DNA from: Eledone cirrhosa
Lineage: Eukaryota
Assembly (NCBI GenBank): GCA_964016885.1
Contig: OZ024743.1
Span: 44,950,001-45,014,000 of the forward strand
DNA length: 64,000 nucleotides
Direction of reading: 5' to 3'
In this document: in pieces, positions 49,061-50,350 of the stretch
Position numbering within the stretch: position 1 is the stretch's first letter
How the letters are laid out: each line of letters opens with the position of its first letter
The notes under the pieces: model-generated
What the model saw: only the letters and a program-made list of their open reading frames with translations
The model's database searches: none
What the model was told of the DNA's origin: nothing
Translations under genes and position numbers: made by a program

Positions 49061-49671
49061 AAATATATATATACATATAAATATATATATATACATATAT
49101 ATATATATATATATATATATATATATATATATATATATATATATATATATATATATATATATATATATATATATATATATATATATATATATATATATAT
49201 ATATAAAGAATTAATATATCTACCGACATATGTATACAGATGCATACCTACGCTAGCAGATATATATGTTTTGTCTTAGTAACTTTGTAGTTCTATGCAG
49301 GGGAATGCAGAACAATTATATGAAAGACGTAAATAAGAATGTTATGAAAATTGACTTATACATATGTCGGTAGATATATTAATCCTTTATATTCTTCTCC
49401 AAATTATTTGTTGATCAAAATTTGCCAAATTACTACTGTGACTGATAGTAGTGGCTAGGCTCTGTCTTAATAGCACCCCCACTCCAAGCTGGTTAACCTC
49501 AGTGTCACGTGATTAATTCTTTTGAATTTGCCACTTGACTAAGGAGACAGCGAATTTTTCAATGCTTAGAATCTAGCCCCGCTCGATTTTTTCGCTTTTT
49601 TCCATCAACTGAATTATTGTTATATAAGCTTCCAGTGTCCCCGCATTGCCTGGTGGCTTAGCTGAGAATAG

Positions 49672-49750
49672 ACTCCCTGATGACGTAAGGCTTCTCTACA
49701 GGTATTACATAACTGTATTTATCCCCTTACAGAAACTAATTAGTTGGAGT
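49672..49750 (+). ncRNA. Type I hammerhead ribozyme
   Basis: ACTCC-CTGATGA-C-GTAAGG...CCTTAC-A-GAAA-CTAATTAG-TT-GGAGT. Confidence 0.85.
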
Positions 49751-50201
49751 GAAATTTTAGTAAGTAAGTCAATTTTTATAACTTTCTTATTTACGTCTTT
49801 CATATAATTGTTCTGCATTCCCCTGCATAGAACTACAAAGTTACTAAGACAAAACATATATATCTGCTAGCGTAGGTATGCATCTGTATACATATGTCGG
49901 TAGATATATTAATTCTTTATATTCTTCTCCAAATTATTTGTTGAGCAAAATTTGCCAAATTACTACTGTGACTGATAGTAGTGGCTAGGCTCTGTCTTAA
50001 TAGCACCCCCACTCCAAGCTGGTTAACCTCAGTGTCACGTGATTAATTCTTTGGGATTTGCCACTTGACCAAGGAGGCAGCGAATTTTTCAGTGCTTAGA
50101 ATCCAGCCCCGCTCGATTTTTTCGCTTTTTTCCATCCACTGAATTATTGTTATATAAGCTTCCAGTGTCCCTGCATTGCCTGGTGGCTTAGCTGAGAATA
50201 G

Positions 50202-50280
50202 ACTCCCTGATGACGTAAGGCTTCTCTACAGGTATTACATAACTGTATTTATCCCCTTACAGAAGCTAATTAGTTGGAGT
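50202..50280 (+). ncRNA. Type I hammerhead motif, second copy (GAAA changed to GAAG)
   Basis: Identical to 49672-49750 except at position 15.1. Confidence 0.7.
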
Positions 50281-50350
50281 GAAATTTTAGTAAGTAAGTC
50301 AATTTTCATAACTTTCTTATTTACGTCTTTCATATATATATATATATATA

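What the first reader, a model, noticed from the sequence alone, without database searches (positions are those of the whole stretch)
49203..50333. 530-bp hammerhead tandem that also carries the PLE-type 5' inversion
Seen: 1.8 copies of a 530-bp non-coding unit, each with ACTCC-CTGATGA...GAAA-CTAATTAG-TT-GGAGT, preceded by an inverted piece of about 155 bp joined through a TA microhomology. The inverted piece spans the unit-to-unit junction. Inference: one insertion combining retrozyme-like tandem structure with the inversion seen in the coding PLEs at 8101 and 21270 points to PLE machinery mobilising the non-coding unit.
Basis: partly seen in the sequence, partly recalled or inferred. Interest (0 to 1): 0.78.

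Follow-up and report, generated by a model that had tools for sequence, protein, structure and literature searches.

The report
Hammerhead retrozyme with Penelope insertion footprint
This is one young copy of a non-coding, hammerhead-ribozyme-bearing 530-bp repeat with thousands of genomic copies, whose insertions end at two fixed points about 116 bases apart, one per arm, which likely shows that a Penelope-like retrotransposon enzyme copies it and likely stutters as it starts.

Summary
The structure is real: a 980-bp arm of 1.85 tandem 530-bp units and a 158-bp inverted arm, joined over TA and set in (TA)n. One correction: the second hammerhead has GAAG, not GAAA, a private mutation.

The unit belongs to a non-coding family with about 9,400 exact hammerhead-motif hits and a covarying type I hammerhead. 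Outer ends are fixed at two sites 116-118 nt apart. Of 106 head-to-head insertions, 91 use one site per arm, none uses the same site twice, and 15 have an odd end. This matches the Penelope-like element (PLE) 'tail', explained in vitro by two reverse-transcription start sites. The inverted arm is therefore likely a second cDNA primed from the other target strand.

The unit is not the end of a coding PLE: 0 of 52 free 5' flanks run into an ORF. The helper is unidentified; a Hydra-type family is a weak lead. Subfamilies whose start site reads CTCT gain (CT)3-25 only at insertion ends (19 of 24, versus 0 of 22 internal), suggesting telomerase-like stuttering.

PLE mobilisation of retrozymes was already proposed. 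The scan noted similar insertions in other genomes. Cleavage and circles are untested.

The parts
49049..49200 (.). (TA)n tract on the left, likely the integration target
   Evidence: (TA)n or a CT/GA run on both sides in 64 of 76 two-armed loci
49201..49358 (-). Short arm, 158 nt, outer end at fixed site B (unit position 36); inferred second cDNA
   Evidence: reverse complement of 49765-49922
49357..49358 (.). Head-to-head junction of the two arms, 2-nt TA overlap
   Evidence: overlaps of 1-7 nt in 51 of 78 junctions
49357..50336 (+). Long arm, 1.85 head-to-tail copies of the 530-bp non-coding unit (36% GC), outer end at fixed site A (unit position 450)
49672..49750 (+). Type I hammerhead, copy 1: 5-bp stem I, CUGAUGA, C.A mismatch then 6-bp stem II with a distal helix, GAAA, palindromic stem III; predicted cut after 49745 (GUU)
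49803..49806 (+). Internal copy of site A (TATA), 61 nt downstream of the predicted cut; inferred RT start site
   Evidence: 3' ends at unit 450 in 57 of 123 arms
49807..49922 (+). 116-nt 'tail' between sites A and B
   Evidence: 116-118 nt in 25 of 32 natural monomers, 5 not measured
49858..49909 (+). Predicted long hairpin just upstream of site B; candidate protein-binding element (inferred)
   Evidence: predicted fold only
49918..49922 (+). Internal copy of site B (TATAT); preceded by CTCT in some subfamilies, which carry (CT)n at insertion ends
   Evidence: 3' ends at unit 30, 35 or 36 in 55 of 123 arms
50202..50280 (+). Hammerhead copy 2 with private A15.1 to G change at 50265, predicted impaired
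   Evidence: importance of A15.1 from PMC3088659 passages
50333..50352 (.). Terminal site A merging into the right-hand (TA)n

Best explanation
The locus is one insertion of a non-coding, tandem hammerhead repeat family (a non-LTR retrozyme) whose copies end at two fixed sites 116 nt apart, one per arm, and it was likely copied in trans by a Penelope-like RT-endonuclease. Shown: the anatomy, the copy number, the two fixed ends, the one-site-per-arm rule, the scattered inner ends and the hammerhead covariation. Inferred mechanism: the borrowed enzyme, probably a dimer, binds the RNA downstream of the hammerhead and cuts both strands of a (TA)n tract. One target 3' end anneals to the UAUA at site A and the other at site B. 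Each primes its own cDNA, which runs upstream through the hammerhead cut site for a variable distance, up to about 4 units. The two cDNA ends are then joined head to head over 1-7 nt of microhomology. Here the site-A cDNA ran 980 nt and the site-B cDNA 158 nt. Reading through more than one unit needs a circular monomer or an uncleaved multimer; a circle is favoured but not shown. At initiation the RT likely slips and recopies the first template bases, which leaves (CT)n where site B reads CTCT. The helper is likely a Hydra-clade PLE.
For: 3' ends: 112 of 123 arms in 76 chromosome-1 loci end at unit 450, 36, 35 or 30. Head-to-head pairs: 67 of 76 and 24 of 30 are A/B, none is A/A or B/B. Site spacing is conserved across subfamilies only about 70% identical to this unit, with periods of 511-571 nt. 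Coding PLE families here have two fixed ends about 45, 60, 91 and 96-100 nt apart. In vitro, a PLE protein extends both target strands from two internal RNA sites that bound the tail, and it is predicted to be a dimer (PMC11167929, main text parts 1-2). Hammerhead covariation: 32 two-sided changes over 7 of 18 pairs, 0 of 500 shuffles as high, slid controls near zero, with G.U pairs on the + strand. No 5' end falls at unit 386-393 among 185 arms, so RT does not run off a cleaved end. In-register arm pairs are not closer than out-of-register pairs (lower in 15 of 37 loci). Copies within a locus share rare variants at 5-6 per kb versus 1-2 per kb for nearest outside copies. (CT)3 or more at 19 of 24 terminal versus 0 of 22 internal CTCT sites and 1 of 62 terminal CTTT sites, repeated in a second sample.
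Against: No helper is identified: the unit has no blastn match to 98 coding-PLE loci apart from a retrozyme copy in one of them, and similarity to the Hydra-type lead is weak (2 and 216 of 1,000 shuffles; 59 and 257 of 5,000). The hammerhead has a C.A mismatch next to the core in 137 of 147 variants, which the criteria in PMC3088659 would reject, so cleavage is uncertain. PMC11167929 found cleavage unnecessary for insertion in vitro, and no start-site difference between strands, whereas the genome here shows strict pairing. The shared-variant excess rests on a few loci (L061, L062, L080, L111); this locus shares none, and the within-locus partner was the nearest relative in only 57 of 148 comparisons. 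L064 arms may come from different RNAs and L111 units alternate, which a single monomer circle does not explain.
Confidence: 0.85

Rival explanations
1. The unit is the terminal repeat (pLTR) of a coding PLE, and these copies are its 5'-truncated ends.
For: Two earlier scan cases with this look turned out so (e1-7812955, e1-7908855). Truncated coding PLEs give the same two-armed form. Only a few hundred of about 9,400 motif hits were inspected.
Against: Beyond site B the sequence runs straight into the next hammerhead with a 511-571-nt period, up to 4.3 units. No long ORF in six frames. 0 of 52 non-unit 5' flanks hit PLE proteins or share a junction-adjacent sequence. The L061 lead was a separate element beyond (TA)n. 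L082 is a one-off chimera.
Confidence: 0.07
2. PLE-mobilised as above, but from uncleaved linear multimeric transcripts; the hammerhead and circles play no part in insertion.
For: Hammerhead mutants did not affect insertion in vitro (PMC11167929). The core has a C.A mismatch. L111 shows alternating unit types.
Against: Unit-specific differences are not inherited in register (15 of 37). Hammerhead core and helices are conserved with compensatory changes across subfamilies. 5'-truncated linear copying cannot by itself regenerate more-than-unit length over many subfamilies (inference).
Confidence: 0.3
3. The terminal (CT)n arose after insertion by replication slippage beside the long (TA)n, or by targeting of compound microsatellites, not by RT stuttering.
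For: A two-unit CT seed in phase with a long dinucleotide tract can expand (general knowledge, recalled). No empty alleles were seen.
Against: 0 TA-(CT/GA)n-TA sandwiches among 584 background TA tracts, and no CT or GA run directly at the opposite end in 11 flanks shown. Run length does not grow with within-locus divergence (rho -0.42, p 0.11, n 16).
Confidence: 0.35
4. A DNA foldback or MITE-type element with long inverted repeats, or a satellite rearranged by recombination.
For: Variable-length inverted repeats with internal tandem units. TSDs cannot be read in (TA)n.
Against: The two termini are different sequences, many copies have one arm only, truncation is polar (fixed 3', scattered 5'), and an RNA structure covaries on one strand.
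Confidence: 0.03

Closest known systems
Metazoan non-LTR retrozymes (Cervera & de la Pena 2020, PMC7229834, passages read; Li, Clavereau & Pollet 2026, 10.64898/2026.07.22.740005, abstract through discussion read, supplements closed)
   Same: Non-coding, low-GC tandem repeat with one type I hammerhead per unit, thousands of copies, PLEs in the same genome. Both papers propose PLEs as the mobiliser.
   Different: The unit is 511-571 nt (170-400 nt RNAs in the first paper, 51-972 bp in the second). Their case rests on co-occurrence and pLTR similarity; in the text I read, neither describes inverted arms or two fixed ends. Here the insertion footprint itself is shown, while no pLTR homologue was found. 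The core has a conserved C.A next to stem II.
EN+ Penelope-like elements: tail and two RT start sites (Frangieh et al. 2024, PMC11167929; Craig et al. 2021, PMC8557442, passages and the Hydra section)
   Same: Partial tandems, an inverted 5'-truncated copy, a tail at one end only, start sites downstream of the hammerhead, microsatellite targets.
   Different: No ORF. The tail is 116-118 nt against the described 30-40 bp. One site per arm is strict (91 of 91 classifiable pairs). The start sites share TA microhomology with the target, unlike the anole element's non-homologous start.
Non-autonomous Chlamys PLEs such as MRC1 (PMC8557442, passage)
   Same: Non-coding PLE passengers forming pLTRs and multicopy head-to-tail insertions.
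   Different: Those resemble their autonomous partner at the 3' end, and their clade is described as lacking canonical hammerheads. Here a hammerhead is conserved and no clear partner was found.
Template slippage at 3' repeats of LINEs and SINEs such as UnaL2 (PMC3747384, one passage)
   Same: A short repeat at the start point is likely recopied during reverse transcription.
   Different: Here it is at an internal PLE-type start site, is subfamily-specific, and has a built-in internal control. My searches found no such report for PLEs.

Membership tests
Non-LTR retrozyme | Short non-coding, low-GC unit in head-to-tail copies | tested here: met
   530 bp, 36% GC, no long ORF, up to 4.3 units
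Non-LTR retrozyme | Type I hammerhead in each unit | tested here: met
   Core and helices conserved with covariation. Caveats: C.A mismatch beside the core, no Rfam hit, copy 2 here is mutated
Non-LTR retrozyme | Self-cleavage, as monomer or dimer | not testable with these tools
   Only energy estimates: monomer fold -0.4 kcal/mol, stem III palindrome duplex -9.0
Non-LTR retrozyme | Expressed as unit-length circular RNA | not testable with these tools
   No RNA holder listed; the predicted circle folds well, z -4.4 against 60 shuffles
Non-LTR retrozyme | No LTR pair, PBS or PPT | tested here: inconclusive
   No LTR pair and no tRNA gene; PBS and PPT were not searched
Autonomous EN+ PLE | ORF with RT and GIY-YIG endonuclease | tested here: not met
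PLE-type integration | Partial tandem plus inverted 5'-truncated copy | tested here: met
PLE-type integration | Tail at one end only, bounded by two fixed 3' ends | tested here: met
   91 A/B, 0 A/A or B/B, 15 odd of 106 pairs; tail 116-118 nt
PLE-type integration | Insertion into AT-rich or microsatellite targets | tested here: met
   64 of 76 two-armed loci with (TA)n or a CT/GA run on both sides; empty sites not seen
Non-autonomous PLE | 3' sequence shared with an autonomous partner | tested here: inconclusive
   None with three families; weak motif and spacing match to a Hydra-type family
Solo pLTR of a coding PLE | 5' extensions run into the ORF | tested here: not met
   0 of 52 non-unit flanks out of 259 arms
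DNA foldback / MITE | Identical termini in inverted orientation | tested here: not met
   The termini are sites A and B, never the same
DNA foldback / MITE | Fixed-length TSD | tested here: inconclusive
   Unreadable in (TA)n; one non-TA site (L064) has a possible 9-bp duplication
L1-type twin-priming inversion (features recalled) | Poly(A) start and non-overlapping arms | tested here: not met
   No poly(A); the arms copy overlapping template, both can exceed one unit

The most novel reading that the evidence does not exclude
Penelope-like reverse transcriptase, the closest retroelement relative of telomerase, adds simple repeats by recopying the first template bases when it starts. A dimeric enzyme assigns one fixed RNA start site to each cut DNA strand and rolls round a 530-nt ribozyme circle. 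PLEs and their retrozyme passengers would then write part of the microsatellites beside them rather than only target them, and this family records both properties in thousands of copies.
Probability: 0.4. Interest if true: 0.8.

Novelty: new variant of a known kind. Interest (0 to 1): 0.62.

Why it matters
Which enzyme moves animal retrozymes has been argued from co-occurrence and sequence similarity. This family carries the PLE-specific integration mark itself, and so does an unrelated hammerhead family next door. Because it is short, non-coding and abundant, it gives a clean record of PLE integration: one start site per strand in 91 of 91 classifiable insertions and a tail three times the described length. 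The subfamily-specific (CT)n makes a telomerase-like stuttering step directly testable with an existing in vitro assay, on a 530-nt substrate.

Tried and rejected
Rfam at gathering threshold: no match in the window.

Helper search: an ORF next to a diverged copy in L061 was a separate young 1,329-aa PLE beyond (TA)n with an unrelated hammerhead. The window's two PLE families showed no similarity. A pattern for shorter stem II gave 45 hits; 29 of the 30 loci fetched were the same family. An apparent match of L393 to the unit was TA-rich flank, rejected. The ORFs of L163 and L393 had no Pfam hit; their assignment rests on motifs read by eye and tblastn.

Template tests: the register test for a multimeric template showed no difference; an apparent signal vanished after realignment. 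No pile-up of 5' ends at the cut site; 9 of 185 fall at 394-399, unexplained. Apparent (CAT)n at ends of the 21271 family lay beyond (TA)n and was dropped. Free folding does not give the hammerhead (z -0.75).

Literature searches for PLE slippage, twin priming, microsatellite seeding and cephalopod hammerheads found nothing on point. The library lacks most subscription papers, including early Penelope work. The supplements of PMC11167929 gave no hits for tail, inverted or initiation; its Fig. S2 was not seen.

Full report
Observation. The window lies in a 3.0-Gb genome (G000:C4:44950001-45014000). The element has a long arm at 49357-50336, 1.85 copies of a 530-bp unit differing at 12 of 450 positions, and a short arm at 49201-49358 that is the reverse complement of 49765-49922. 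The arms overlap by TA and both flanks are (TA)n. The unit is 36% GC with no long ORF and no tRNA gene. Against the young subfamily's majority the two copies differ at 5 of 526 and 7 of 438 positions, none shared, which fits identical copies at insertion. One of these changes turns GAAA into GAAG in hammerhead copy 2.

Family. A DNA search gave 2,159 candidates, 40 scored. A 20-mer from the hammerhead's 5' half has 1,083 exact matches and one from its 3' half 9,418, against 0 for reversed controls. Among 90 full-length copies there are 14 clusters, ten with two or more members, 1-3% from their own majority. More distant subfamilies are about 70% identical to this unit, with periods of 511-571 nt.

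Hammerhead. Rfam does not detect it and free folding does not give it, but comparative evidence is strong. In 20 copies picked for diversity, 96.7% of cells pair, with 32 two-sided changes over 7 of 18 pairs; no shuffle of 500 reached this and slid partners give at most 5. Relatedness inflates such counts. The 3' half was fixed by my selection pattern, so stem III's invariance there is not evidence, where that half was not selected, it is also conserved. Stem III is a 10-nt palindrome (duplex -9.0 kcal/mol against -0.4 for the monomer fold), the dimer-type design described in PMC4209133 (passages). The pair next to the core is C.A in 137 of 147 variants. PMC3088659 treats such a mispair as disqualifying (passages), so activity is uncertain.

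Ends. In 76 chromosome-1 loci picked by a hammerhead 20-mer, 112 of 123 arms end at unit 450 (site A) or 36, 35 or 30 (site B), while 5' ends scatter. Among 115 non-redundant loci, 76 head-to-head pairs gave 67 A/B, 0 A/A or B/B and 9 with an odd end (17 overlapping loci dropped as duplicates). A second sample of 40 loci with more distant subfamilies gave 24 A/B, 0 homotypic and 6 B plus unclassified. Either arm can be the longer (41 versus 29) and both can exceed one unit. Junction overlaps of 1-7 nt occur in 51 of 78, blunt joins in 5, extra bases in 22; a few of the 78 are split alignments. This locus's TA overlap is therefore typical and weak alone.

Controls in the same genome. The coding family at 8101 has ends about 45 nt apart, that at 21271 about 91 nt, and a young 1,329-aa family 60 nt. 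In the 8101 family four two-armed loci used both ends and one (L275) used the same end twice. A Hydra-type family has a tail of about 96-100 nt and 9 of 10 opposite-strand pairs A/B, the exception being tail-to-tail. The unrelated 549-bp hammerhead tandem at 50350-50960 has ends 97 nt apart, with 6 of 7 two-armed loci using both and one truncated.

Mechanism. PMC11167929 (parts 1-2 read) shows a PLE protein cutting and extending both target strands and starting at two internal RNA sites that bound the genomic tail; it models the protein as a dimer. PMC8557442 (passages) notes a 30-40-bp tail often at one end only. The data here fit directly: each target strand primes its own cDNA, one at A and one at B, and the two are joined head to head. 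That step is inferred. The strict pairing suggests an asymmetric complex, which the in vitro work did not see.

Template. No arm starts at unit 386-393 among 185, so the enzyme reads through the cut site. A circle or an uncleaved multimer is needed. In-register pairs are not closer than others (15 of 37), and rare variants are shared within loci at 6.1 and 5.1 per kb against 1.9 and 1.1 for controls. This leans to a monomer template, but a few loci drive it, this locus shows none, and L064 and L111 do not fit. Circles as PLE templates were already proposed (PMC4209133, PMC7229834).

Stuttering. Subfamilies whose internal site B reads CTCT have three or more CT units at 19 of 24 insertion ends and at 0 of 22 internal copies; CTTT subfamilies at 1 of 62 ends, and that one looks like a misfiled internal copy. 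The second sample repeats this within single loci (L314, L318, L320). Compound targets are rare, 0 of 584 background TA tracts, and length does not grow with age. Post-insertion slippage is not excluded. This locus is of the CTTT type and has no such run.

Coding parent and helper. Of 259 arms, 52 have a 5' flank that is not unit sequence; none hits PLE proteins or shares junction-adjacent sequence. PLE fragments near 33 of 162 loci lie in mixed orientations. The best lead came from L082, where an arm joins the 3' UTR of a coding family whose remainder is absent downstream. That family is young (at least 130 copies identical over 70 aa) and has an ORF with RT motifs, CxCx5C and GIY-YIG, matching the Hydra clade description (PMC8557442). 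Its site A lies about 72 nt from GAAA, as here, and it shares a short motif before site B. Similarity is marginal after several comparisons, so this stays a lead: I put a Hydra-clade helper at about 0.6 and this family at about 0.35.

Verdict. It works like a PLE passenger and files as a non-LTR retrozyme, with cleavage and circles untested. The link was already proposed in print. What I did not find in print is the footprint on a hammerhead retrozyme, the strict one-site-per-arm rule, a tail above 100 nt, and start-site repeat addition by a PLE.

Noticed in passing
window 50350-50960 (-): A second, unrelated non-coding hammerhead tandem family: 549-bp unit, 1.11 copies here, type I hammerhead with long stems I and III near 50606, 1,095 genomic candidates, two fixed ends 97 nt apart used one per arm.
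   Followed up: partly
window 48990-49048 (+), 54929 (-), 20075 (-): Further hammerhead-like motifs of other families. The one near 49000 was seen by eye and ends at the (TA)n into which the element inserted.
   Followed up: no
window 8101-10791 (-): Very young coding PLE (over 50 copies identical across the 127-aa endonuclease) with a tail of about 40-45 nt; my pattern found no hammerhead in it.
   Followed up: partly
window 21183-26187: Older Hydra-type PLE by motif, with a long-stem-II hammerhead at 26084 and a tail of about 91 nt, so long tails also occur in coding PLEs here.
   Followed up: partly
L163 620-9032: Young PLE family with an unusually long 1,329-aa ORF carrying a low-complexity insert, in perfect tandem (4,423-bp period); both start sites lie inside the first 90 nt of the ORF.
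   Followed up: partly
L082 about 3290: A retrozyme arm joined directly to the 3' UTR of the Hydra-type coding family, with the rest of that element absent; possible template switch between passenger and helper RNA, or a later deletion.
   Followed up: partly
L111 1593-3787: 4.3-unit array in which units 1 and 3, and 0 and 2, share most rare variants, hinting at a dimeric template or a later duplication.
   Followed up: no
L064 2,800-3,900 region: Insertion outside (TA)n with a possible 9-bp duplication; the tandem units of one arm share 5 rare variants absent from the other arm, hinting at two RNA templates.
   Followed up: no
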